64,000 nucleotides of DNA from Candidatus Eiseniibacteriota bacterium (GCA_963792585.1 CAWBWI010000001.1:1-64000); one strand, 5' to 3'. Numbered from the stretch's first letter, positions 27,267 to 37,153 are shown. Translations and numbers: made by a program. Notes: generated by a model not told the origin, from the letters alone.

Positions 27267-27632
27267 TCAGCGGTAGATCGCCTTGATCTTTCCCCATGTC
27301 GTGTTTCGTTGAGGGGTCGGGCAAGGACTCGGATCGCAACTCGTGCACGGCTCCATCCAGGAGCCTCCGCCCTGCTCGCAGTCTTCCTGAAGGATGAACT
27401 CACAGTGGCTGTCAGGAAAACAGCAAGCAGACTCCGGCGGCGGCGGTCAGGGATTCGGTTCGCAACTGGTGTTGTCCCCGAAATAGTAGCCACCCTGGGC
27501 CAAACACGCCTCCTCCGTGGTGATGATGCAGTCGTAACACGGGGGAAAACAGCAAGCTCCCTCTTGGGCGGCGACAGGAACCGCGACCACGATCCCGCCG
27601 AATAACGCGAGCATCGGCAAGATCCATTTCAT
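27267..27632 (-). CDS. secreted Cys-rich repeat protein with C-terminal TWGKIKAIYR; in-frame TGA at 27447-27449
   Basis: AAAGGAGG RBS and signal peptide. Repeat 1 GACCFPPC...CEPNP[TGA] continues in frame to repeat 2 SACCFPDSHC...CDPSPC and TTWGKIKAIYR*. Confidence 0.75.
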
Positions 27633-27914
27633 CGCATTCCTCCTTTCAGGCGCAGGTTCTACAGCGTGAACAGCCCCCCAAGCGTCCATTCACACGACTC
27701 AATTGTACCCCCGAACTCCGGCGCAGGCCAGGTACATGGCTGTCTTCCCACGGATACCGGGGGAACGCCGGCCGCGGTCGCGACCCTCACAAGATCGCTC
27801 AACATGCACCCATAACAAATAGCAGCATAACGGGTTGTAACTCTGTGGGCTGCGACCCTCCCTGATGGCACGGCCATGGTTGTTAGTGCGGACGAGGAAA
27901 GGGGGACGGCGGCC

Positions 27915-29003
27915 ATGAGACCGTTCTACTTCATCACAGGGGGCCTGGGATCGTTGGGTCGCGAGATCGTCCCCCGGATCCTCTCCCGAGAGCCCCGCGC
28001 TGAGATCGTCCTCCTGGTGCGGGCGAGAGACGACGCGGGGGTTGGGCTCCGTATGGACGAGCTTGGTCGCTACCTGTCCACGTACTGGCCCGGCGTCGAC
28101 CGGACGCGTTTGCATGCCTGCAGGGGCGATGTCACCCTGTTTCGCTTCGGGCTTGGGGATACCACCTACCGGGACCTCGCGGGACGCGTGACCCACATCG
28201 TTCATGCCGCCGCCTGCATCGACCTGGGCCAACCCCTCGAGCAGGCGCGCCGCGTCCATGCCGGCGGAGTCCGCGAGGTGCTTCGCTTCGCCGCGCGCTG
28301 CCCCCGCTTGATCCACCTCGCGCACGTGAGCACGGCGTTCGTAGCCGGCACTCGCGAGGGGATGATCCTCGAGCGGCAGCGCCTCTGCGGCCAAGGCTTT
28401 CGTAACGCATACGAGCAGAGCAAGTGCGAATCGGAGGAGATCGTCCGGACGTGGATGGACGAACTGCCCATCACGATCTTCCGGCCGAGCATCATCGTGG
28501 GAGACGCAAGCGACGGCCGCACGTGCAACTTCGCGACCTTTTACCGCGCCCTGAGGATGATCGCGATGGGCCGGATCCGCGAGCTCCCCGTCGATCCAGA
28601 GGCCCGCCTCGACATCGTCACCGTCGACTATGTCGCCGAGGCCGTCGTGGAGCTGACCCTCCATCCACGCCGCAGAGGCGCCGTCTATCACCTGGTCGCG
28701 GGCTCCGAGCGCTCGATTCGGATCGGCGATCTTGTGGAGGCCGCTCATTCCTGGGGCCAAGGGGCGAAGCCGGGGAGCGCGACGCGACCCTCGACCCCGC
28801 GCGCAGGACTTTCGATCTTCTTCAGCTACCTGGGCGGAGGGCAGACGTTCGACGACGCAACGACCCGCTTCGATCTCGGTCCGGACGGTCCGGTGCCCGA
28901 TCGCCCGGAAGTTTACCTGCCGAGGATGCTCGCTTTCTGTGTCGGAACCAATTGGGGGAGAGATCTCCCCTGGGAGGCAAGGCAATGGCAACCCGCAGCC
29001 TGA
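27915..29003 (+). CDS. extended SDR reductase (fatty acyl-CoA / thioester reductase-like)
   Basis: ITGGLGSLG, GDVT, IVHAAA, HVSTAFV, YEQSK, FRPSIIVGD. Confidence 0.85.
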   Translation: MRPFYFITGGLGSLGREIVPRILSREPRAEIVLLVRARDDAGVGLRMDELGRYLSTYWPGVDRTRLHACRGDVTLFRFGLGDTTYRDLAGRVTHIVHAAACIDLGQPLEQARRVHAGGVREVLRFAARCPRLIHLAHVSTAFVAGTREGMILERQRLCGQGFRNAYEQSKCESEEIVRTWMDELPITIFRPSIIVGDASDGRTCNFATFYRALRMIAMGRIRELPVDPEARLDIVTVDYVAEAVVELTLHPRRRGAVYHLVAGSERSIRIGDLVEAAHSWGQGAKPGSATRPSTPRAGLSIFFSYLGGGQTFDDATTRFDLGPDGPVPDRPEVYLPRMLAFCVGTNWGRDLPWEARQWQPAA

Positions 29004-30175
29004 CGCGACCGGCAGCCGCCCCCATCCTGGAGCGGCCGGTCTTCGAGCGGCTCCTCTTCGCACAGTGCTGGGAGGATCCCCGCATGGACATCGAGGCCCT
29101 CCGCCCGCGGGACGGCAGCACGCTGGTCGTCGTGACTTCCGGCGGATGCACCGCGCTCACACTGGCCCTGGGGGGGGCGGAGAAGGTGATCGCCGTCGAT
29201 CTCAACACGGCGCAGAGTTGGCTCCTCCACTTGAAGATCGCCGGGGCGCGCGTGCTGGACCATGGGGAGTACCTCGAGTTGCTCGGGGCCCGCACCTCGA
29301 CGCGGCGCCAGGACCTCTATACGCGTTGCCGTCCCGTCATGCCGGCGCGTGCCCGCGCCTACTGGGATCGCGAAGAAGATCGCATCGACGCGGGCGTCCT
29401 CGAATCGGGGCGCTACGAACGATACCTCGCGAAGTTTCGAGGCCTCCTCCGGACCCTTCATGGAGAGAAGCGGATCGCCCGCCTCTTCGACCTCCACGAT
29501 CTTGATGAGCAACAGCGGTTCTACGATGATGAATGGGACACCGTCGCCTGGCGCCTCTTCTTCCGCGTCTTCTTCTCCAGGACGGTTCTCGGCGTTGCGG
29601 GTCTCGACCGGGCGTTCTTCACCTACGTCGAGGGCATTCCGGACTTCGGGGCGCATTTCCTGGGCCGCGCGCGCCACGTCCTGACCGAGCTGCCGATCCG
29701 CGAGAACTACTTCCTCGCGCAGATATGCCTCGGGCACTACCTCGAAGAACTCTCCCTGCCGCCCTATCTCCAGCCGGCCAACTTCGAGCGACTCAAGACG
29801 GCCGTTCGCCGCATCGAGGTGGTGACGGAGGAGCTGGGGGCACTTCTCGCGCGGCTTCCGGAGAAGAGCGTCGACGGCTTTGCCTTCTCGAACGTGTTCG
29901 AGTGGGTTTCTCTCGAGGCGTTCGAGTCCCTGTTGCGGCAGACCCACCGCGTTTCGCGGCCCGGCGCGCGGCTCTGCTACCGGAATCTGCTCGTGCGCCG
30001 CAAGCATTTGCCTTCCCTCGACGGTCTCTTCGCCCCGGACGACGCGCTGGCGGCACGCCTGCTGTACGAGGATCGCTCGTTCGTCTACTCGCACTTCGAG
30101 ATCGCGACGGCGCTCGAGCCGGTGGGTGCTGGAAACGGCCGCTCGACGGATGCGCGCCACGGAGGTTCGAGATGA
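28985..30175 (+). CDS. BtaA/DUF3419-family SAM-dependent 3-amino-3-carboxypropyl transferase
   Basis: LLFAQCWEDPRMD, VTSGGC, AVDLNTAQ..LL.LK, ENYF, PPYL, SNVFEW, PGARLCYR, DRSFVY. Confidence 0.8.
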   Translation: MATRSLTRPAAAPILERPVFERLLFAQCWEDPRMDIEALRPRDGSTLVVVTSGGCTALTLALGGAEKVIAVDLNTAQSWLLHLKIAGARVLDHGEYLELLGARTSTRRQDLYTRCRPVMPARARAYWDREEDRIDAGVLESGRYERYLAKFRGLLRTLHGEKRIARLFDLHDLDEQQRFYDDEWDTVAWRLFFRVFFSRTVLGVAGLDRAFFTYVEGIPDFGAHFLGRARHVLTELPIRENYFLAQICLGHYLEELSLPPYLQPANFERLKTAVRRIEVVTEELGALLARLPEKSVDGFAFSNVFEWVSLEAFESLLRQTHRVSRPGARLCYRNLLVRRKHLPSLDGLFAPDDALAARLLYEDRSFVYSHFEIATALEPVGAGNGRSTDARHGGSR

Positions 30176-30657
30176 AGACCCGGAAGATCCCGACCATCAA
30201 ACGCGAAACCGCGCGCGTTCTGACCTTGGTCACGCTGGCGGCCTTGCTGACACAGGTCATGGGGTGCTGCACCCTGATCGGACTCGGCGTCGGCGCAGCC
30301 ATTGATCGTGCAAAGCCCTCCGGCTTCGTGGCTCGGGAGCAATGGTCAGCGCTGCCGCTCGACGCCCACGTTGAGGTCCTTGAGAGGAACGGAAGCGAGG
30401 TGGCGGGTCGATTCATCGGGATGGAGTCGATCCGTCCGGACAGCGCGATCGTCACCGTTCGAACGGATTCGATCGACACGAGCATGCCCGCCTCGCGCAT
30501 TGCGAGCATCTGTCGTTGCGGTTCGAGCGATGGAAAGATCGTCGGTCTCTTCGCGGGGTTTGTCGTCGACTGCGTAGTGACGGTCGCGGTCATCCATGCA
30601 CTGGAAGATGAGAATTGGGTCTTCGGATCCGGGTCGTGGGGGAAGACCACGCGGTAG
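30172..30657 (+). CDS. hypothetical lipoprotein / membrane protein
   Basis: ATGA overlap with the BtaA-like gene. Hydrophobic N-terminus ending MGC. C-terminal TM. Confidence 0.55.
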   Translation: MKTRKIPTIKRETARVLTLVTLAALLTQVMGCCTLIGLGVGAAIDRAKPSGFVAREQWSALPLDAHVEVLERNGSEVAGRFIGMESIRPDSAIVTVRTDSIDTSMPASRIASICRCGSSDGKIVGLFAGFVVDCVVTVAVIHALEDENWVFGSGSWGKTTR

Positions 30658-30709
30658 ACCGGCCCCCCGGGGCGCGGCCCGCATGTGCCGAGCGAGTTGG
30701 AGGATTGCG

Positions 30710-31429
30710 ATGAAGGCATACATGAAGTGGAGTTTCCTGATCCACCTGTGGACATTGGCCGGACTTGGGTTCGCCATGCTGGCCGCGCAGCAGATCTTCC
30801 TCGGGCATCTCGACGCCGCTGCGCGGTGGTTGCTGATGGTTCTCGTGGTCGACCACACGGACGGCACGATGGCGCGGGCCTTCCAGGTGAAGCGTCGGCT
30901 CCCCGAGATCTCGGGGGAGACGCTCGATCTCATCACCGATGTGATCGGATTGACCTTCGTGCCCATGATCTTCTGCTGGCGCGCGGGGGTGTTCCTTTCG
31001 GGATGGGGAGAGGCGATCGCCGTCGCAGCGGCCGCGACCTGTAGCCTGAAGTACGCGATGAAGGCGCGTTTGCTCGAGGAGGGCGTGAGCCGGGGAGCGC
31101 CGCCCATCTTCTTCTCGGTCCTCCTGTTCTGGTTCCTGCGGCTCCCTCCCGTGTGGGGAACGGTCTACACGCTGGTCCTGATCCTCCTCTGCTGGTCGCC
31201 GATCCGCTATCCGATCACGAGTCTCATGACGACCCACTGGAAGCCGGGATTCCAGAGCCTCACGAACTACGCGAGCTTCATCGCCATGGTCCCGGCGATG
31301 ATCTGGCTGCAGCGCGCCCCGGTGATCTTCTTCTGGTCCTTGCTCGCATTGCTGCTCTTCCACCTATTCATCTCGCCAGCCCTGCTGGCCGCCGGCATCG
31401 TGCGGCCAGGGCTGCGGCGTGTCTACTGA
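30710..31429 (+). CDS. CDP-alcohol phosphatidyltransferase (phosphatidylcholine synthase-like)
   Basis: Signature DHTDGTMAR...GETLDLITD. IHLWT N-terminus resembles Pcs. Confidence 0.8.
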   Translation: MKAYMKWSFLIHLWTLAGLGFAMLAAQQIFLGHLDAAARWLLMVLVVDHTDGTMARAFQVKRRLPEISGETLDLITDVIGLTFVPMIFCWRAGVFLSGWGEAIAVAAAATCSLKYAMKARLLEEGVSRGAPPIFFSVLLFWFLRLPPVWGTVYTLVLILLCWSPIRYPITSLMTTHWKPGFQSLTNYASFIAMVPAMIWLQRAPVIFFWSLLALLLFHLFISPALLAAGIVRPGLRRVY

Positions 31430-31438
31430 GGTGGTGCG

Positions 31439-32833
31439 ATGAGCAGGAACGTCACGGATTGGGGTTTCGCCCTGGATGAAAGCGGGGGGCTTCGGATCGG
31501 CGAGGCTTCGGCCGAGGAACTCGCGCGCGCGCACGGCACGCCACTCCATCTGATCGACGAGGTCGGTCTGCGTCGGCGGGCCGCGGACTTCATGCGCGCT
31601 TTCGTGACCGCATACGCGGGGTGCGTCCATGTCCAGTATGCCCTGAAGTGCAACAACACTCCGGGGGTGGTCGCCATGGTGCTCGACGAAGGGCTCGCCC
31701 CCGAGGTCGGCACGCCATACGAATGGGCTCTGGTGCGGCGCCTCGGCGTGCCTCCTGAGCGGATCGTCGTGAACGGTCCGTACAAGGGCCTCCTCCTGGA
31801 ACACGCGGTGCGCGAGGGGGCGGGACTGATCGTGGTCGACGGCCCGGCCGACCTCGAGGCGATGGTCGGGGCGGGCCGCGCCGCGAACCGGCGCGTGCCG
31901 ATCCTGCTTCGGATCAACCCCAACTGCGTGCCCAAGGGGATGAATCGGGCATCCGCGACCGGTTCGCGCACCCACAGCGTCTTCGGATTCGATTCCGTCA
32001 CCGGAGAGATCTCAGAGGCGCTCGAGCGGGTCGCCGCCTCGCCGTTCCTCGATTTCCGAGGTTTCCACTGCCATGCGGGTACGGGTATCCGTCGTCCGGA
32101 GGACTACCTTCGTCCGATCGAGATTCTCCTCGACTGCGCCCTCCACGCGGAGAAGCGTGGGTTGAGCGTGAAGACGCTCGACGTCGGCGGCGGGTTTGGT
32201 GTGCCGACGAGCCGTGAGATGAGCACTGCGGAGTTCCTGCTCTATCAGTCGATGGGAAGGTTGCCGAAAGCGCCCGACGCGGGCCGATTCCCGGCGATCG
32301 AGACCTTCGCGACGACGATCGCGGAGGCGATTCGCCGTGGATGCGCGAAACGCGGTCTGGAGAACCCGGAGCTCGTGATCGAGCCGGGACGCGCGGTGGT
32401 CAGCGGCGCGGGCGTCCTGCTCCTCACCGTCGGGGCCATCAAAGGGCGCGCAGGGGTCGGGACATGGGCGATCACCGACGGCGGGGCGGGAACCGTGGCG
32501 TTTCCTCTCTTCTATGAATACCACGAGGTTCTTCTATGCAGGGCCGCGAGCGAGGAGGGGAGAATGCGGTACTCGATCGTCGGCCCGGCATGTTTCAGCG
32601 CCGACTGGATCTACCGCAACAAGAAGATGCCGGAACTCGCGCCCGGCGACGTGCTCGCGATCTGCGATGCGGGCGCCTACTTCACGGTTCAGGAGTCGAA
32701 CTTTGGCTTCCCGCGCCCGGCGATCCTTGCGGTGCGGGACGGTGCAGCCCGCGTTCTGCGGCGCCGCGAGACCTTCGATGACATGGTGGCCCGCGATGTC
32801 GGGTGGGAAAACGGCGATGGACGCGGTGCGTGA
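31439..32833 (+). CDS. fold-type III PLP-dependent decarboxylase (LysA/NspC-like)
   Basis: GTPL, YALKCN (PLP Lys), LLRINP, HCHAG, DVGGGFG, EPGR, GPACFSAD, DAGAY, NFGFPRP. Confidence 0.85.
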   Translation: MSRNVTDWGFALDESGGLRIGEASAEELARAHGTPLHLIDEVGLRRRAADFMRAFVTAYAGCVHVQYALKCNNTPGVVAMVLDEGLAPEVGTPYEWALVRRLGVPPERIVVNGPYKGLLLEHAVREGAGLIVVDGPADLEAMVGAGRAANRRVPILLRINPNCVPKGMNRASATGSRTHSVFGFDSVTGEISEALERVAASPFLDFRGFHCHAGTGIRRPEDYLRPIEILLDCALHAEKRGLSVKTLDVGGGFGVPTSREMSTAEFLLYQSMGRLPKAPDAGRFPAIETFATTIAEAIRRGCAKRGLENPELVIEPGRAVVSGAGVLLLTVGAIKGRAGVGTWAITDGGAGTVAFPLFYEYHEVLLCRAASEEGRMRYSIVGPACFSADWIYRNKKMPELAPGDVLAICDAGAYFTVQESNFGFPRPAILAVRDGAARVLRRRETFDDMVARDVGWENGDGRGA

Positions 32834-33461
32834 GCGGGGGCTCCGGTTCCGCGTCTTGGGCCCGAGCGACCACGCGGGGGCGGCCGCGATCGCCGGGGAG
32901 GCCTTCGCGGGGAATCGGTTCTACGAAGACGTCGCCGGCCTCGATCGAGAGGGCTTCGCGGCCTACTGGGACGCGTTCCTCTCCCTCGCCCTTGGCGATC
33001 GATCCGCCCGGGTGTTGGGCGTCGAGCTCGACGGCAAACTCGGAGCGCTGGTCGTGGTCGCCTATCACGGCTTCCCTTCAGCGCGCGGCGCCATCCGATT
33101 CGTCTCCAAGTTGACCCCGAGGATTGGTCTCCGCCGTGCATGGGGATATCTCCGGTTCGTGGCCGCATACGATCGGGCCATGCGCCGGCCTCGCTGTGAG
33201 GAGCGCCGCGAGGCGCGCGGCCTCTGGTTGATGGCGGATTCCCGGACAGCGCGCCCGCGGGTCGGCGCTGCCTTGATGCGTTTCACCGCCGGGTACCTCC
33301 GCGCCGAGGGCAAGGAGATCCTCACCGGATTCGTCGACGCGGGCAACATACCGCTGCTCGCTTTCTACAGGCGACTGGGGTATCGGCTCGGTCCACGATT
33401 CCGCTTCGCGGGGCACTGGGCGACCATCGCCGAGTTGAGGAGTGGAGGCGCGCCGTGTTGA
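32817..33461 (+). CDS. GNAT family N-acetyltransferase
   Basis: RVGAALM (motif A-like) and NIPLLAFYRRLGY. Confidence 0.7.
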   Translation: MDAVRERGLRFRVLGPSDHAGAAAIAGEAFAGNRFYEDVAGLDREGFAAYWDAFLSLALGDRSARVLGVELDGKLGALVVVAYHGFPSARGAIRFVSKLTPRIGLRRAWGYLRFVAAYDRAMRRPRCEERREARGLWLMADSRTARPRVGAALMRFTAGYLRAEGKEILTGFVDAGNIPLLAFYRRLGYRLGPRFRFAGHWATIAELRSGGAPC

Positions 33462-34618
33462 TCCGACGCTACGACTCGATCGACGCGGTCGATCCCGGGC
33501 GCTGGGACGCCCTCTGCAGCGATCCGTTCAGCGCGCACGCGTGTCTCGCCGCGCTCGAGCGCGCGGGGATGGATGGGGTCCACATGCGCTACGCGATCAT
33601 CGAGAGCGGGCGCGGGGACTGGCTCGCTGCGGCCCCCTTCGCGCGGATCCCGATCGACGCCGGGCGGCTCACGCACGGCATCTTCCGCGGGATCGTCCAC
33701 GGCGCCCGGAGGATCCAGCCGGGGTTCCTGCACACGAGCCTCACGATTTGCGGCGCGCCCCTATCCGTCGGCAATCCCCCCGCGCGCGTCGCGCTCGGGG
33801 CCGACCAAACCATCGTCTACCGCCTCCTCGCGGGTCTTCTGCAGGAGATCGCGGAGGAAGATGGCTCCCCGTGGTGTGCCTTCAAAGAGTTCGGCGCTAC
33901 AGAACTTGGGGTGGCGGAGCGAGTCCTGTCGCCCCTCGGGTGGATCTTCGCGCCGGGGGAGCCCAACCACCGCATGGCAATCCGGTGGGCCGGATTCGGG
34001 GAGTACCTCGCGGATCTGCGGAGCGTCTATCGAACGAAGCTCCTGCGCGAGAGGGCGCAACTCGCGGACGCGGGGGTCACAGCGGACGTCGTTCCGCTCG
34101 CGGATGCCTACGACAGCCGGATCCACTGTCTCTACGAAGACGTCTTCGATCGCGCCGTCGTGCAGTTCGAACGACTGACGCCGGCGTTCTTCTCCGTCCT
34201 GGGCGACGCGTACGCGTCGCGCGCCTCGTTGATCCGGCAGCGTATCGACGGCCGGACGGTCGGCTGGGTCGCGGTGCTCGTGGACGGGGACGGGGTCTAT
34301 GACCTCTTCCACGGAATCGACTACGAGGTAAACGGGCGACTCCCGCTCTACTTCGGGCAACTTGCGGAGGTCGTTCGCTTCGCGATCGACCAGCGCGCCG
34401 GATGGCTGTCGATGGGCCAGAGCACCCCGATCGCCAAGGCGCGATTCGGCGCCGGCACTGTCCCGCTCTGGGTCGCCGTTCGACACCGGAACGCTTCGAT
34501 CACCCGCCTGCTCCGCGCCGGGCGGGGAACCCTCTTCCCGGAACCGGTCGTCCCTCGACGACGCGTCTTTCGACATTCCTCGGAGACGGAGGAGACTCGA
34601 TGCGCTACCGGTTCGTGA
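33455..34618 (+). CDS. double-GNAT FemAB-like acyl/aminoacyl transferase
   Basis: WDAL..DPF....LAALE, FGEYLADLRS..R, GIDYE....LYF, MGQS...KARFGA. Confidence 0.7.
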   Translation: MLIRRYDSIDAVDPGRWDALCSDPFSAHACLAALERAGMDGVHMRYAIIESGRGDWLAAAPFARIPIDAGRLTHGIFRGIVHGARRIQPGFLHTSLTICGAPLSVGNPPARVALGADQTIVYRLLAGLLQEIAEEDGSPWCAFKEFGATELGVAERVLSPLGWIFAPGEPNHRMAIRWAGFGEYLADLRSVYRTKLLRERAQLADAGVTADVVPLADAYDSRIHCLYEDVFDRAVVQFERLTPAFFSVLGDAYASRASLIRQRIDGRTVGWVAVLVDGDGVYDLFHGIDYEVNGRLPLYFGQLAEVVRFAIDQRAGWLSMGQSTPIAKARFGAGTVPLWVAVRHRNASITRLLRAGRGTLFPEPVVPRRRVFRHSSETEETRCATGS

Positions 34619-35508
34619 TCAACACGGCTGCCGGCCGCGCCCGGCCCGAGTCGGTCCGGGAACTGATCGATCGCGAATTCGAAGGCCTTCCCCACGAGAT
34701 CGTGATCGATCCCTCCGCCGCCCGTCTGGAGGCCCTCTGCGATGCAAGGCTGTGTCCCGACGGACTGACGATCATTGCGGTCGGAGGGGATGGGACGATC
34801 AACCGGCTGGTCAACACGCCGCGCCCTGACGAAGCAATGATCGGGATCATCCCGATGGGCACGGCGAACGACCTCGCTGCGGCCCTCGGCATCCCGGACG
34901 ACCCGGTCGCGGCTTGCCGCGTGATCCGTGCGGGGCGGATCCGCCGGATCGACCTCGTGGGGGTCAACACGAAGCGATTCGCAACCTGCGGAGGGATCGG
35001 TCTCGCGGCCGAGGCCGCCATGCGCGCGAATCGCTGGCGGCAATCGAGACACCATCCGGGGGGCAGGTTTCATGGATGGCTCTATCCCGTCGCCGCGATG
35101 TGCGAGATCGCGACCCGCCGGCGGCCCGGAATGGTGGAGATCCGCTGCGAGGGCCGGCGGCTGGCCGCAGAGACGATGACGCTCGTCGTCTCGAATCAGG
35201 CCCGCTTCGGAGGTCGTTTCGCGGCCTCGCCCAATGCATCGAACACCGACGGCCTCTTCGATATCTGTGAGATCCGGGCGCCGGGCTCGAGGATGCGGAT
35301 GCTCTGGGTGGTCCTGCGGGCGCTGGGAGGTCGGCTCGACAGGGTGCGCGAGATCGTGCGGATGCGGGGGGCCGCAGCGACCCTGACCTCGCCCCGCGAC
35401 GTCTGTTTCTTCGGGGACGGCGAGATCCTCGACGTGGCCCGTTCCTTCGAGATCCGTCTACTCCCGTCGGCGTTGCGGGTTCTGGCCCCTGCTGGGGGTG
35501 GACGATGA
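34600..35508 (+). CDS. diacylglycerol/lipid kinase (YegS/DAGK family)
   Basis: INTAAG, VGGDGTIN, IPMGTANDLA, NQARFGG, DGLFD, GDGE. Confidence 0.9.
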   Translation: MRYRFVINTAAGRARPESVRELIDREFEGLPHEIVIDPSAARLEALCDARLCPDGLTIIAVGGDGTINRLVNTPRPDEAMIGIIPMGTANDLAAALGIPDDPVAACRVIRAGRIRRIDLVGVNTKRFATCGGIGLAAEAAMRANRWRQSRHHPGGRFHGWLYPVAAMCEIATRRRPGMVEIRCEGRRLAAETMTLVVSNQARFGGRFAASPNASNTDGLFDICEIRAPGSRMRMLWVVLRALGGRLDRVREIVRMRGAAATLTSPRDVCFFGDGEILDVARSFEIRLLPSALRVLAPAGGGR

Positions 35509-36233
35509 ATCCGGGATCGCTCCTTCTCATCGCGGGAGGCCTATTCGCGTTCGGAGGGTCGCTCATGATCCTGGGGCAGATCGTGCGCCGCGCCGATCCC
35601 GCCCGCAGGCGTTCCGACGGGATCAAGTACGCGGTCTACGTCGCCGTCATCGGAAGCCTGCTGGCGTCGCTGGCCCTCTCGCGGATTCTCGCGGCAATCT
35701 TGCTGTCGGCGATCGCCATCGGGGGAGCCCGCGAGCTCCATGCCAACCTGCGGGGGCGTAGGACCTGGCCTGCGGGCGTCTCGATAATCTCCGGGCTCTT
35801 GGCGGCTTGGAGTCTGGGCCACCTACTCTTGGGAGAGTGGGGGGCGACCTTGGTCCTGCTCGTCGCGACGTGCGACGCATTCTCCCAGCTCTGGGGCCGC
35901 CTCTTGGGGCGGCGTCCGCTCTGCACGCGGATCAGTCCCGCCAAGACCGTAGAAGGGTTGGCGGGGGGAGTCGCGACGACCGTGCTGGTCGCGGCGCTGA
36001 TCAGCCCGCTCTTGCCGGGTCTTCAAGTCGATCGGCGGGTCTTTCTGGGCGCGGTCGTCGCGGCGGGGGCCACGGCCGGCGACCTGGGCTTCTCGTACCT
36101 CAAGCGCCGTCTCGGCATCAAGGACTTCGCCTCGACCCTGCCGGGACATGGCGGCCTGCTCGATCGGTTCGATAGTCTCATCCTCGCCGCCCCTCTCGGG
36201 ACATGGGTCCTGCGATGGATCCTCTCCCGGTGA
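35505..36233 (+). CDS. cdsA: phosphatidate cytidylyltransferase
   Basis: ISPAKTVEG, GDL.FSYLKR.LGIKDF..LPGHGGLLDRFDS. Confidence 0.9.
   Translation: MNPGSLLLIAGGLFAFGGSLMILGQIVRRADPARRRSDGIKYAVYVAVIGSLLASLALSRILAAILLSAIAIGGARELHANLRGRRTWPAGVSIISGLLAAWSLGHLLLGEWGATLVLLVATCDAFSQLWGRLLGRRPLCTRISPAKTVEGLAGGVATTVLVAALISPLLPGLQVDRRVFLGAVVAAGATAGDLGFSYLKRRLGIKDFASTLPGHGGLLDRFDSLILAAPLGTWVLRWILSR
36169..36233 (+). repeat. 65-bp direct repeat, copy 1 (cdsA 3' end; attL-like)
   Basis: Matches 43886-43950 with 4 mismatches. Confidence 0.9.
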
Positions 36234-36397
36234 GGGGCAAGGCGCTGTGTCCGTCCGTGGAGGGGTTCTCGCTGTATGCAGCGCAGGCTGTTCCGGTGGA
36301 GGATCGAGAAGCGCTGGCGCGGCACCTCCACTACGGGCTTCGTGCTCTCTTCTCCCAGGAGCGGCTCTCCCGGCGACCTGATGGAAGGGTCGTCTAG
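36234..36397 (+). pseudogene. IS91/ISCR-family (Y2) transposase remnant
   Basis: VEGFSLYAAQAVPVEDREALARHLHYGLRALFSQERLSRRPDGRVV resembles the GFSLHA...DR..LERL.RY..R..L..ERL....DG.V segment of these transposases. Confidence 0.6.
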
Positions 36398-36546: not shown

Positions 36547-36753
36547 TTGATCCGAAACCGGGAACTGCTGGATGCCTCCGAGCGGGCGCAGTTGCGTCGG
36601 CACCCGCCGGACTACCTGGAAAACCTGGCGATCTTCGAGGCCCTATACGAAGAGGGCCGGCTTCTCGGCGTCATCCCATCCGAGGACCCACTCGAGGGGA
36701 TCGAATCCGACATCCGATTGGCACGAGCGCTCTGTGTTCGGCCCCCTTCTTGA
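36547..36753 (+). CDS. small hypothetical protein (putative antitoxin-like partner of the nucleotidyltransferase)
   Basis: AGGAG RBS. NLAIFEALYEEG..LG......PLEGIESDIRLARAL. Overlaps the downstream nucleotidyltransferase. Confidence 0.55.
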   Translation: MIRNRELLDASERAQLRRHPPDYLENLAIFEALYEEGRLLGVIPSEDPLEGIESDIRLARALCVRPPS

Positions 36754-37153
36754 GAGGATTGCGATCGGGCTAGCGCCTCTTGTCGATCCGGAGTCGTTCA
36801 CCCGCTCTACGATGGTGTTACCCTGCCAAGATCCTGTTACCAAGATTCGGGTCGACCTCACCTTCTCCTTCAGTCCGTACGAGCGGGGAGCGATCCAACG
36901 GGCCGGCGGGGTAGAGATCGGTGCCGCCCGAGTTCGCTTCGCCTCCGTCGAGGATCTCATCATCCACAAGGTGATCGCCGGTCGGCCGCGCGACCTCGAG
37001 GACGTCCGCATTCTCCTGATCGAAAACCCACAAGCAGATATCGTCGTGATTCGTCGAGTCCTTGCGGAGTTCTCCGAAAGCCTCTCCGAGCCTCTATCGG
37101 AGCATTTCTCGCGGATCGAAGCCGAAGCTCGGGGTCCTGAGGAAGTCGGCTGA
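36734..37153 (+). pseudogene. nucleotidyltransferase (AbiEii/DUF6036-like), apparently internally deleted
   Basis: RVDL, SVEDLIIHKVIAGRPRDLEDV present. The N-terminal GG..A...RxTxDxD catalytic segment is absent. Confidence 0.55.

What the first reader, a model, noticed from the sequence alone, without database searches (positions are those of the whole stretch)
27915..36233. Nine-gene operon for an apparently undescribed amino-lipid / phospholipid
Seen: nine same-strand, mostly overlapping genes encoding an SDR acyl reductase, a BtaA-like protein, a lipoprotein, a CDP-alcohol phosphotransferase, a fold-III PLP decarboxylase, a GNAT, a FemAB-like GNAT, a DAG kinase and CdsA. Known: BtaA moves the 3-amino-3-carboxypropyl (ACP) group of SAM onto DAG and normally pairs with the methylase BtaB, which is absent here. 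DAG kinase, CdsA and a CDP-alcohol transferase together form a complete route from DAG to phosphatidyl-X. Inference: the operon makes a non-betaine lipid, for example an ACP adduct that is decarboxylated to an aminopropyl group and then N-acylated. Alternatively it makes a phospholipid with such a head group, possibly with a fatty-alcohol (ether) component from the reductase. I know of no characterised pathway with this gene set.
Basis: partly seen in the sequence, partly recalled or inferred. Interest (0 to 1): 0.85.

Follow-up and report, generated by a model that had tools for sequence, protein, structure and literature searches.

The report
Undescribed aminopropyl-phospholipid biosynthesis operon
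This gene cluster is real and recurs in several uncultured bacterial groups; it likely takes a three-carbon amine from SAM and attaches it to a membrane phospholipid, probably a ceramide-like one, by a route I could not find described.

Summary
Observation confirmed: nine same-strand genes, six of eight junctions overlapping. Housekeeping cdsA and lysA lie elsewhere, and no BtaB orthologue was found in this 84%-complete genome. The 'lipoprotein' is a passenger: 0 of 83 related loci, skipped in a related strain. The decarboxylase defines a family tied to a BtaA-like gene: 62 of 70 type A/B loci, the 8 misses cut by contig ends. Type A (this one) is rare (4 of 206 genomes of its phylum, some Gemmatimonadota) and usually adds an ABC exporter missing here. 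A commoner sister operon (57 of 80 loci) has a ceramide-synthase-like GNAT, a PEMT-like methylase and an MtnB-like enzyme instead. The decarboxylase keeps PLP residues but lacks LysA's substrate Arg/Glu. The FemAB-like model best matches aminoacyl-tRNA transferases, so it likely adds an amino acid, not a fatty acid. Best reading (about 0.5): SAM aminocarboxypropyl transfer plus decarboxylation puts an aminopropyl group on a phospholipid whose anchor is likely ceramide-like. Acceptor and product are untested. This scan earlier noted BtaA paired with a different, PSD-type decarboxylase on other DNA.

The parts
27915..29003 (+). Stand-alone thioester reductase (extended SDR, NAD_binding_4), 362 aa; predicted to reduce an acyl-thioester to a primary alcohol
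   Evidence: PF07993 E 3e-52; TGxxGxLG and YExSK present; closest solved relatives MxaA R domain E 2e-23, a PKS R domain, fatty acyl-CoA reductase. Present in G073, G074, G188 at 44-51%; an HMG-CoA-reductase-like gene with intact motifs is found instead in 6 of 13 type A loci; no reductase in L043.
28985..30175 (+). BtaA-like (DUF3419) SAM-dependent 3-amino-3-carboxypropyl transferase, 396 aa; acceptor unknown
   Evidence: PF11899 E 2e-70; WED, Gly54 and Asp72 invariant with canonical BtaA; only copy in G000; groups with type A/B/C proteins, apart from 3 canonical BtaB-paired BtaAs (quick tree).
30172..30657 (+). Orphan 161-aa lipoprotein-like gene; passenger insertion, not a pathway gene
   Evidence: No Pfam or NCBIfam hit; 0 of 83 related loci; Atlas neighbours are hypothetical proteins; an X20 contig joins 30122 to 30737, while X2 carries it; lowest GC3 of the nine, 0.77.
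30710..31429 (+). Pcs-like CDP-alcohol phosphotransferase, 239 aa
   Evidence: Best NCBIfam hits are five phosphatidylcholine synthase models, 43-70 bits against cut-offs of 300-440; D48xxD51G52xxA55R56...G69xxxD73xxxD77 invariant in 12 of 12; 70-79% identical among type A.
31439..32833 (+). Fold-III PLP decarboxylase of an uncharacterised family, 464 aa; predicted to decarboxylate the ACP adduct
   Evidence: Model pLDDT 89, DAPDC/DOKDC fold at 21-27% identity; K70, H212, E315, R318, C385, Y414 kept; DAPDC Arg becomes F355 and Glu becomes F386; lysA 239 bits, under the 298 cut-off; housekeeping LysC-LysA at C3.
32817..33461 (+). Small GNAT, 214 aa; likely acetyl or acyl capping of an amine
   Evidence: PF00583 weak; fused to the decarboxylase in P0077, P0079, P0082 and to the FemAB-like protein in P0131; 9 of 13 type A loci.
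33458..34618 (+). Tandem-GNAT FemAB-like protein, 386 aa; likely aminoacyl-tRNA-dependent transferase
   Evidence: Model pLDDT 95; top folds Sbb17 Z 21.5, FemX 21.4 and 21.2, FemA 21.0, then an uncharacterised tandem GNAT 18.8 and MprF 17.9 (Foldseek agrees); R192 and K327 invariant in 98 of 98; not detectably related to bCerS/YghO.
34600..35508 (+). Soluble YegS/DgkB-family lipid kinase, 302 aa
   Evidence: PF00781 and PF19279; TIGR00147 over cut-off; GGDGT, GTAND and GDGE motifs; absent from the G188-type loci; replaced by a PEP-utiliser-type kinase in L045 and L104.
35505..36233 (+). Second CdsA-type cytidylyltransferase, 242 aa
   Evidence: PF01148 E 2e-38; SPxKxxEG and the KR..KD..HGG.DR.D motif intact (pattern recalled); housekeeping cdsA at C1:1023906-1024685; a CarS-like gene takes this slot in L045.

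Best explanation
The operon likely makes an undescribed membrane phospholipid that carries a SAM-derived 3-aminopropyl group, on an anchor that is probably amide-linked (ceramide-like) rather than ordinary diacylglycerol. Shown: the gene families, intact catalytic motifs, and co-inheritance of BtaA-like, decarboxylase, CdsA and Pcs-like genes. Inferred steps: (1) the kinase phosphorylates a lipid alcohol, the extra CdsA makes the CDP-lipid, and the Pcs-like enzyme joins it to an alcohol, which the reductase may supply; (2) the BtaA-like enzyme transfers the aminocarboxypropyl group of SAM to an oxygen of that lipid or of its head group, releasing MTA; (3) the decarboxylase removes CO2 to leave a primary amine; (4) the FemX-like enzyme adds an amino acid from aminoacyl-tRNA and the small GNAT caps an amine; (5) in most relatives a MacB/LolCDE-type ABC exporter moves the product. 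In the sister type B operon the same core would go on a ceramide phosphate and be N-methylated, giving a sphingomyelin-like lipid with a three-carbon head. I put the core claim (a lipid aminopropylated by ACP transfer plus decarboxylation) at about 0.7 and this whole scheme at about 0.5.
For: Coupling: of 80 decarboxylase loci, BtaA-like is present in 11 of 13 type A, 51 of 57 type B and 1 of 10 others; all 8 A/B misses have the decarboxylase within 1201 nt of a contig end; groups were defined by other neighbours. Specificity: position 386 (Glu in LysA) is Phe in 65 of 66 BtaA-linked-type decarboxylases and 1 of 10 others, and position 355 (Arg in LysA) is F/M/L/T/I. No BtaB orthologue in G000 (best hits E 5e-8, against 1e-30 to 1e-87 among true BtaBs) or in the 80 loci. 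In type B a PEMT-like membrane methylase is fused or adjacent to the BtaA-like gene (51 of 57), and a class II aldolase whose best hit is MtnB, an MTA-salvage enzyme, is present in 56 of 57. Lipid product: kinase, cytidylyltransferase and Pcs-like slots persist under gene swaps (PEP-type kinase, CarS-like; L045, L104); the exporter's best hits are DevA/DevC and LolD/E. Amide anchor: the type B GNAT is a full-length YghO homologue (27%, E 2e-44), and yghO lies in the E. coli BL21 spt cluster; two type A hosts carry an spt-yghO-like-cerR-like cluster; 10 of 10 other type A hosts have an Spt-like hit of at least 489 bits; L097 places an Spt-like gene right after the decarboxylase; L045 adds a desaturase and a fatty-acid hydroxylase. 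Precedents (passages read): MccD/MccE aminopropylate a phosphate by ACP transfer plus PLP decarboxylation (PMC10491745); Caulobacter uses a ceramide kinase and proposes a CDP-DAG-synthase-like and a CDP-alcohol-transferase step on ceramide (PMC11324152).
Against: No biochemistry; the related genomes listed are nearly all metagenome-assembled. The scheme is not one obligatory chain: the kinase is missing from G188-type loci, the reductase from L043, both GNATs from L061, and the exporter from this window and L061. Spt-like genes occur in 97 of 206 genomes of the phylum, so their presence in hosts is not discriminating. G000 itself lacks that Spt class (84% complete), and its yghO-like gene is in pieces. 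The window's FemAB-like protein is not a bCerS homologue. The decarboxylase insertion I first read as a membrane helix is not amphipathic (moment 0.07) and also occurs in non-lipid contexts. In type A, direct ACP transfer to a lipid phosphate would compete with CdsA for the same substrate, so the acceptor there is unresolved. DUF3419 also occurs beside a natural-product cluster (noc/cly, PMC7923214). The order SAM-decarboxylation-first is not excluded (as for MccE).
Confidence: 0.5

Rival explanations
1. DAG-based version, close to the first reader's: BtaA-like acts on diacylglycerol as canonical BtaA does, giving diacylglyceryl-homoserine, which is decarboxylated to a phosphorus-free aminopropyl ether and then aminoacylated; kinase, CdsA and Pcs-like make a separate ordinary phospholipid or balance the DAG pool.
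For: The only shown DUF3419 chemistry is ether formation on DAG (PMC10685587 passage); SAM-site motifs are shared with canonical BtaA; the kinase can be absent (G188-type); G000 lacks the common Spt class.
Against: The protein sits outside the canonical BtaA branch (only 3 references, long branches); kinase, CdsA and Pcs-like stay with the core through gene swaps, which argues for one product; a housekeeping CdsA already exists; type B carries a bCerS-like gene.
Confidence: 0.15
2. Serine-palmitoyltransferase-independent pseudo-ceramide: fatty alcohol from the reductase, ACP ether, decarboxylation, serine added from Ser-tRNA by the FemX-like enzyme, N-acylation by the GNAT; the serine hydroxyl is then phosphorylated, CDP-activated and capped.
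For: It uses all eight conserved genes in one chain; the SDR is an alcohol-forming thioester-reductase type; FemX-like fold; FemAB-like relatives are fused to alpha-oxoamine synthases (P0139, P0144, P0251); decarboxylase-GNAT and GNAT-FemAB fusions exist.
Against: Loci lacking the reductase (L043), the GNATs (L061) or the kinase (G188-type) exist; nothing points to serine specifically; an HMG-CoA-reductase-like protein with intact motifs is an odd source of fatty alcohol; type B has neither reductase nor FemAB-like gene.
Confidence: 0.12
3. The product is an exported lipidated small molecule (microcin-, nocuolactylate- or lipopeptide-like), not a structural membrane lipid.
For: Rare, patchy spread: 4 of 206 own-phylum genomes, 1 of 401 in a Gemmatimonadota sample including the seed genome; ABC exporter; MccE-like decarboxylase-GNAT fusions; a DUF3419 gene flanks the noc/cly cluster and nocuolin takes Met C2-C4 plus N and loses C1 (PMC9486936 section 9); the top fold matches include natural-product peptide synthases.
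Against: No carrier protein, NRPS, PKS or precursor peptide among the conserved clusters; CdsA, Pcs-like and PEMT-like proteins are integral-membrane lipid enzymes.
Confidence: 0.12
4. The decarboxylase acts on something other than the ACP adduct (a free or carrier-bound amino acid, giving the amino alcohol for the Pcs-like enzyme), and the BtaA-like step keeps its carboxyl, giving a homoserine-type lipid.
For: Close relatives of the decarboxylase occur without BtaA, for example in exopolysaccharide-type loci (L105, L132) and beside PEMT-acyltransferase fusions (L109, L116, L118); L104 and L151 have two copies.
Against: Most BtaA-free relatives (9 of 10) lack the F386 signature, and 7 of 10 branch outside the A/B group; linkage to BtaA is complete where sequence allows.
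Confidence: 0.08

Closest known systems
BtaA/BtaB betaine-lipid (DGTS) pathway
   Same: DUF3419 SAM-dependent ACP transferase with shared WED, Gly-rich and acidic SAM-site residues; in type B it is fused to or beside a methylase, as in BTA1.
   Different: No BtaB; separate branch; always with a fold-III decarboxylase; phospholipid enzymes in the operon; type B uses a PEMT-family methylase.
Microcin C aminopropylation (MccD + MccE)
   Same: ACP transfer from SAM followed by PLP-dependent decarboxylation (PMC10491745 passage); decarboxylase-GNAT fusions occur in this family. MccE's C-terminal GNAT is recalled, not seen in a call.
   Different: The review states that BtaA is not homologous to MccD; MccD was not hit by the DUF3419 profile; substrate there is a peptidyl-adenylate, here lipid enzymes surround the pair.
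Caulobacter phosphosphingolipid (CPG/CPG2) pathway: CC_1160 ceramide kinase, CC_1161, CC_1159
   Same: Lipid kinase, CDP-lipid-synthase-like and CDP-alcohol-transferase trio dedicated to a non-DAG anchor (PMC11324152 and bioRxiv 10.1101/2023.05.01.538943 passages); type B holds a YghO/bCerS-like GNAT.
   Different: No SAM or ACP step, decarboxylase or FemX-like enzyme is described there; head group is phosphoglycerate; orthology of our kinase to CpgB was not tested.
Phosphatidylhomoserine and phosphatidylpropanolamine of E. coli (PssA, then probably Psd)
   Same: Gives a lipid-phospho-aminopropyl head, one candidate product class (PMC12221286 passages).
   Different: Made as a side reaction from free homoserine, PPA at very low level; no dedicated operon, no SAM donor, no PLP decarboxylase.
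FemABX / MprF aminoacyl-tRNA-dependent transferases
   Same: Tandem-GNAT fold as best match (Z 21), invariant Lys327 and a basic helix with invariant Arg192; FemX uses Lys305 and a basic helix (PMC12945691 passage).
   Different: 8-16% identity; residue equivalence not shown by superposition; relatives are fused to alpha-oxoamine synthases; donor and acceptor unknown.

Membership tests
BtaA/BtaB DGTS pathway | DUF3419 ACP transferase with SAM-binding motifs | tested here: met
   PF11899 238 bits; W29-E30-D31, G54, D72 invariant with canonical BtaA
BtaA/BtaB DGTS pathway | BtaB-type class I N-methyltransferase beside it or in the genome | tested here: not met
   Three BtaB queries: none in 80 loci; best G000 hits E 5e-8 against 1e-30 or better among BtaBs; genome 84% complete
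BtaA/BtaB DGTS pathway | Groups with BtaB-paired BtaA proteins | tested here: inconclusive
   Separated by a 98% SH-aLRT branch, but quick tree, 3 references, long branches
BtaA/BtaB DGTS pathway | Diacylglycerol is the acceptor | not testable with these tools
   Needs an assay
Diaminopimelate decarboxylase (LysA) | Fold-III PLP site (Lys, His, EPGR, Cys, Tyr) | tested here: met
Diaminopimelate decarboxylase (LysA) | Substrate Arg (xRP) and Glu (CE), equivalog score | tested here: not met
   F355 and F386 instead; 239 bits against 298; LysC-LysA elsewhere
MccD/MccE aminopropylation | SAM ACP transferase paired with a PLP decarboxylase | tested here: met
   62 of 70 type A/B loci, 8 misses truncated; works-like claim only
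MccD/MccE aminopropylation | Transferase homologous to MccD, peptide-adenylate genes nearby | tested here: not met
   No MccD hit at E up to 1; none among conserved clusters
Phosphatidylcholine synthase (Pcs) | CDP-alcohol motif with four Asp, Pcs as best family | tested here: met
Phosphatidylcholine synthase (Pcs) | Equivalog cut-off | tested here: not met
   43-70 bits against 300-440; these models are lineage-specific
Phosphatidylcholine synthase (Pcs) | Choline is the acceptor | not testable with these tools
   No solved relative at E under 0.7
Caulobacter-type phosphosphingolipid pathway | Kinase + CDP-lipid synthase + CDP-alcohol transferase | tested here: met
   Families present in the window
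Caulobacter-type phosphosphingolipid pathway | Host makes ceramide (spt, bcerS, cerR) | tested here: inconclusive
   Cluster present in G073 and G206; in G000 the yghO-like gene is in pieces, cerR-like intact, common Spt class not found, another alpha-oxoamine synthase on C5
Caulobacter-type phosphosphingolipid pathway | Kinase is a CpgB orthologue | not tested
   No CpgB sequence was at hand
Bacterial ceramide synthase (bCerS/YghO) | Homology of the window's FemAB-like protein to YghO | tested here: not met
   hhalign probability 0.1-0.2%; type B GNAT does match, E 2e-44
FemABX aminoacyl-tRNA transferases | Tandem GNAT fold | tested here: met
   Top four VIA-align rows and top twelve Foldseek rows are aminoacyl-tRNA-dependent enzymes
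FemABX aminoacyl-tRNA transferases | Catalytic Lys and basic tRNA-binding helix | tested here: inconclusive
   K327 and R192 invariant in 98 of 98, helix 188-201 rich in R/K; equivalence to FemX Lys305 not shown
FemABX aminoacyl-tRNA transferases | Uses aminoacyl-tRNA as donor | not testable with these tools
   Needs an assay with and without RNase

The most novel reading that the evidence does not exclude
A family of operons across at least eight phyla builds a new lipid class around a SAM-derived aminopropyl linker. Type A assembles a ceramide mimic without serine palmitoyltransferase (reduced acyl chain, aminopropyl ether, tRNA-donated amino acid, N-acyl) and gives it a phospho-head. Type B makes a bacterial sphingomyelin analogue with a three-carbon head and no CDP chemistry.
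Probability: 0.15. Interest if true: 0.88.

Novelty: new variant of a known kind. Interest (0 to 1): 0.66.

Why it matters
DUF3419 hits are commonly read as betaine-lipid (DGTS) potential. This operon and its sisters show a large DUF3419 branch that lacks BtaB and pairs with a decarboxylase, kinases and amide-forming enzymes, so such annotations may be wrong. If the product is as predicted, it is a new amino-phospholipid class in uncultured bacteria, with a clear isotope signature (methionine C2-C4 plus N, C1 lost) that can be sought among unassigned lipids in environmental lipidomes. It would also give first functions to an uncharacterised decarboxylase family annotated as LysA and to the FemAB_like family.

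Tried and rejected
Housekeeping explanation: rejected; separate cdsA, LysC-LysA, SpeA-like and three other CDP-alcohol transferases exist. Assembly artefact: rejected. FemAB-like as a ceramide synthase homologue: not supported. SDR as CerR: only a 31-residue match; the CerR-like gene lies on C3. Decarboxylase insertion as an amphipathic membrane helix: rejected. Expression: contigs of two metatranscriptome runs cover 26 and 27 of 30 bins, but they are contigs of related strains with no silent control, so they do not show transcription. Promoter and terminator scans: at chance level. PDB sequence searches with the bCerS-like, DUF3419, Pcs-like and small-GNAT queries found nothing significant. 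The metagenome scan gave 71 loci, most of them distant LysA-like; I examined the 17 close ones. The careful DUF3419 tree did not finish; the quick tree is cited. No complex prediction was run, as no binding is claimed. The primary bCerS paper was not held, so YghO = bCerS rests on gene context and recall.

Full report
OBSERVATION. Nine + strand ORFs fill 27915-36233, and six of eight junctions overlap by 4-19 nt. Two labels are weak by score (CDP-alcohol transferase, small GNAT), but the transferase has the full four-Asp motif and its best families are all phosphatidylcholine synthases. A 10-kb contig from an independent DNA run covers 28312-36235 in one piece at about 93% identity, so the layout is not an assembly artefact.

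NOT HOUSEKEEPING. G000 (5.4 Mb, 84% complete) has a second, full-length cdsA, a LysC-LysA fusion and a SpeA-like gene (SpeA by my reading of the sequence) and three other CDP-alcohol transferases. The DUF3419 gene is the only one. Three BtaB queries find no orthologue.

CONSERVATION. I clustered their ORFs and sorted them by neighbours other than BtaA. Type A, 13 loci: BtaA-like 11, Pcs-like 11, CdsA 9, small GNAT 9, FemAB-like 9, permease 8, DAGK-type kinase 7, HMG-CoA-reductase-like 6, SDR 2; several are cut by contig ends. Type B, 57 loci (by record title Bacteroidota, Aminicenantes/Acidobacteriota, Ignavibacteria, Gemmatimonadota, Chlorobi, WOR-3, Nitrospirota and others): YghO-like GNAT 56, class II aldolase 56, BtaA-like 51, PEMT-like 51, kinase 48, permease 44; no CdsA, Pcs, reductase or FemAB-like. 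Other, 10 loci: BtaA-like in 1. All 8 type A/B loci without BtaA-like have the decarboxylase within 1201 nt of the contig end. Type A is rare: 4 of 206 genomes of the own phylum, in 3 families, none of the 5 closest relatives; 1 of 401 in a Gemmatimonadota sample, the seed itself. Of 17 close metagenome loci examined, those long enough repeat the type A order. Gene 3 is in none of 83 loci, and a contig of run X20 runs from 30122 to 30737 without it. The permease and ATPase normally lie between Pcs-like and decarboxylase; here that gap is 9 nt.

WHAT VARIES. The reductase is an SDR in G073, G074, G188 and here, HMG-CoA-reductase-like with intact motifs in six Gemmatimonadota loci, an aminotransferase-III/reductase fusion in L045, and absent in L043. 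The kinase is absent in G188-type loci and is PEP-utiliser-type in L045 and L104. CdsA is replaced by a CarS-like gene in L045. L061 lacks both GNATs and the exporter. So the fixed type A core is BtaA-like, decarboxylase, cytidylyltransferase and Pcs-like. Fifteen or so other DUF3419 hits in the own phylum belong to a third layout (HMGR-like, UbiA, PEP-type kinase, DUF3419, membrane protein, YghO-related GNAT, AMP ligase) that has no decarboxylase of this family.

ENZYMES. DUF3419: SAM-site residues are shared with canonical BtaA. In a quick tree of 81 rows, types A (11 rows, 98%), B (50, 99%) and C (14, 99%) each form one side of a branch, and three BtaB-paired BtaAs lie far off (rows under 300 aa and two duplicate loci left out; few references, long branches). 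Decarboxylase: DAPDC/DOKDC fold with PLP residues intact, but the LysA substrate Arg and Glu are replaced by hydrophobic residues; F386 marks 65 of 66 type A/B/L097 proteins and 1 of 10 others (77 rows of at least 400 aa). A 16-21-residue insertion is family-wide and not amphipathic, so it is no evidence for a lipid substrate. FemAB-like: a confident model matches aminoacyl-tRNA-dependent enzymes first in both fold searches, with invariant R192 and K327. It is not detectably related to YghO. Three of its 150 listed relatives that I scanned are fused to alpha-oxoamine synthases (19 long proteins scanned). Decarboxylase-GNAT and GNAT-FemAB fusions tie these three genes to one amine. SDR: closest solved relatives are alcohol-forming reductase domains (MxaA chemistry recalled).

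ANCHOR. The type B GNAT matches E. coli YghO over its length, and yghO sits with spt, ACP and a reductase in BL21. That YghO is bCerS is recalled; the primary paper was not held and the paper I searched does not name it. G073 and G206 carry an spt-yghO-like-cerR-like cluster, and type B host G232 an spt-yghO-like pair, so the operon's copy is a second paralogue at 28-31% identity. Against: Spt-like genes are common in the phylum, and G000 lacks that class, though it has a broken yghO-like gene, a cerR-like gene and another alpha-oxoamine synthase inside a second lipid cluster on C5.

MECHANISM. Shown: families, motifs, linkage. Inferred: ACP transfer from SAM then decarboxylation to an aminopropyl group (about 0.7), on a phospholipid made by the kinase, CdsA and Pcs-like enzymes from a probably amide-linked anchor, with tRNA-dependent aminoacylation and GNAT capping (whole scheme about 0.5). 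Type B reads most simply as ceramide, ceramide-1-phosphate, ACP on the phosphate, decarboxylation, N-methylation, with MTA salvage. In type A the acceptor is open: lipid hydroxyl (BtaA precedent), phosphate (MccD precedent), carboxylate or amine. Rivals: a DAG ether with a separate phospholipid route (0.15), an Spt-free pseudo-ceramide (0.12), a secreted metabolite (0.12), a decarboxylase unrelated to the ACP step (0.08).

LITERATURE. [quoted passage not shown] Searches for this gene set found no description: BtaA + decarboxylase + aminopropyl + lipid (3 papers), DUF3419 (6), BtaA + ceramide + homoserine (1); most were seen as listings only. The library lacks most subscription journals, and no supplements were read, so a description may exist there.

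EARLIER SCAN NOTES. None matched this decarboxylase by sequence or either full word set. Unchecked notes describe BtaA-like genes with a PSD-type decarboxylase (two genomes), with a Fem-like transferase, and an operon like my third layout. They came after my reading was recorded and are not independent support.

VERDICT. Real, conserved, rare, and not found in print in my searches. The enzymes belong to known families and the logic has precedents, so I class it as a new variant of a known kind; the product would be a new lipid. Interest 0.66.

Noticed in passing
G000:C5:119428-126193 (L124:9429-16194): Second unexplained lipid cluster: PlsC-like acyltransferase, an unnamed 322-aa protein that I read as Tam41-like (recalled), a PIP-synthase-like CDP-alcohol transferase, and divergently an alpha-oxoamine synthase, an unnamed 220-aa protein, a lipid kinase and a Zn dehydrogenase. 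The synthase and 220-aa pair also follows the decarboxylase in L097 (55% and 46%).
   Followed up: partly
L046-L115 (57 loci), e.g. L068:6056-14341: Type B sister operon: lipid kinase, PEMT-like (often fused) BtaA-like, YghO/bCerS-like GNAT, decarboxylase, MtnB-like class II aldolase, permease, ATPase. Commoner than type A and a strong target by itself.
   Followed up: partly
L025, L027-L038, L129, L130: Third DUF3419 layout without BtaB: HMG-CoA-reductase-like, UbiA, PEP-type kinase, DUF3419, membrane protein, YghO-related GNAT, AMP ligase; also in cultured Roseinatronobacter and Brevibacillus records.
   Followed up: partly
L045:3872-15355; L104:7741-21033; L151: Variants: aminotransferase-III/reductase fusion, PEP-type kinase, CarS-like, Pcs-like, decarboxylase, BtaA-like, desaturase, hydroxylase (L045); BtaA-methyltransferase fusion with two tandem decarboxylases, glycosyltransferase, PEP-type kinase, Pcs-like, CdsA (L104).
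   Followed up: partly
G000:C3:368949-371040 and C3:388800-390100: yghO/bcerS-like gene in three frames before an intact cerR-like gene, with no spt upstream; a Kbl-like gene also frameshifted. May be assembly errors or decay.
   Followed up: partly
window 27267-27633, - strand: Small Cys-rich exported-type protein ending TTWGKIKAIYR, divergent from the operon, with one in-frame TGA at 27447-27449 where paralogues on C5 have Cys.
   Followed up: no
window 36572-37153, + strand: Nucleotidyltransferase-like gene (weak DUF6036/AbiEii hits) just after the operon; a related strain's contig skips 36235-36808, so the spot is variable.
   Followed up: no
L109, L113, L116, L118; L105, L132; L100, L117: Relatives of the decarboxylase in other settings: beside PEMT-acyltransferase fusions (catalytic Cys replaced by Pro in four), in exopolysaccharide-type loci with GNATs (including plasmid pDV), and in Bryobacteraceae loci.
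   Followed up: partly
P0139, P0144, P0251, P0212: FemAB-like domains fused to alpha-oxoamine synthases (BioF2-like layout) or to a histidine kinase.
   Followed up: partly
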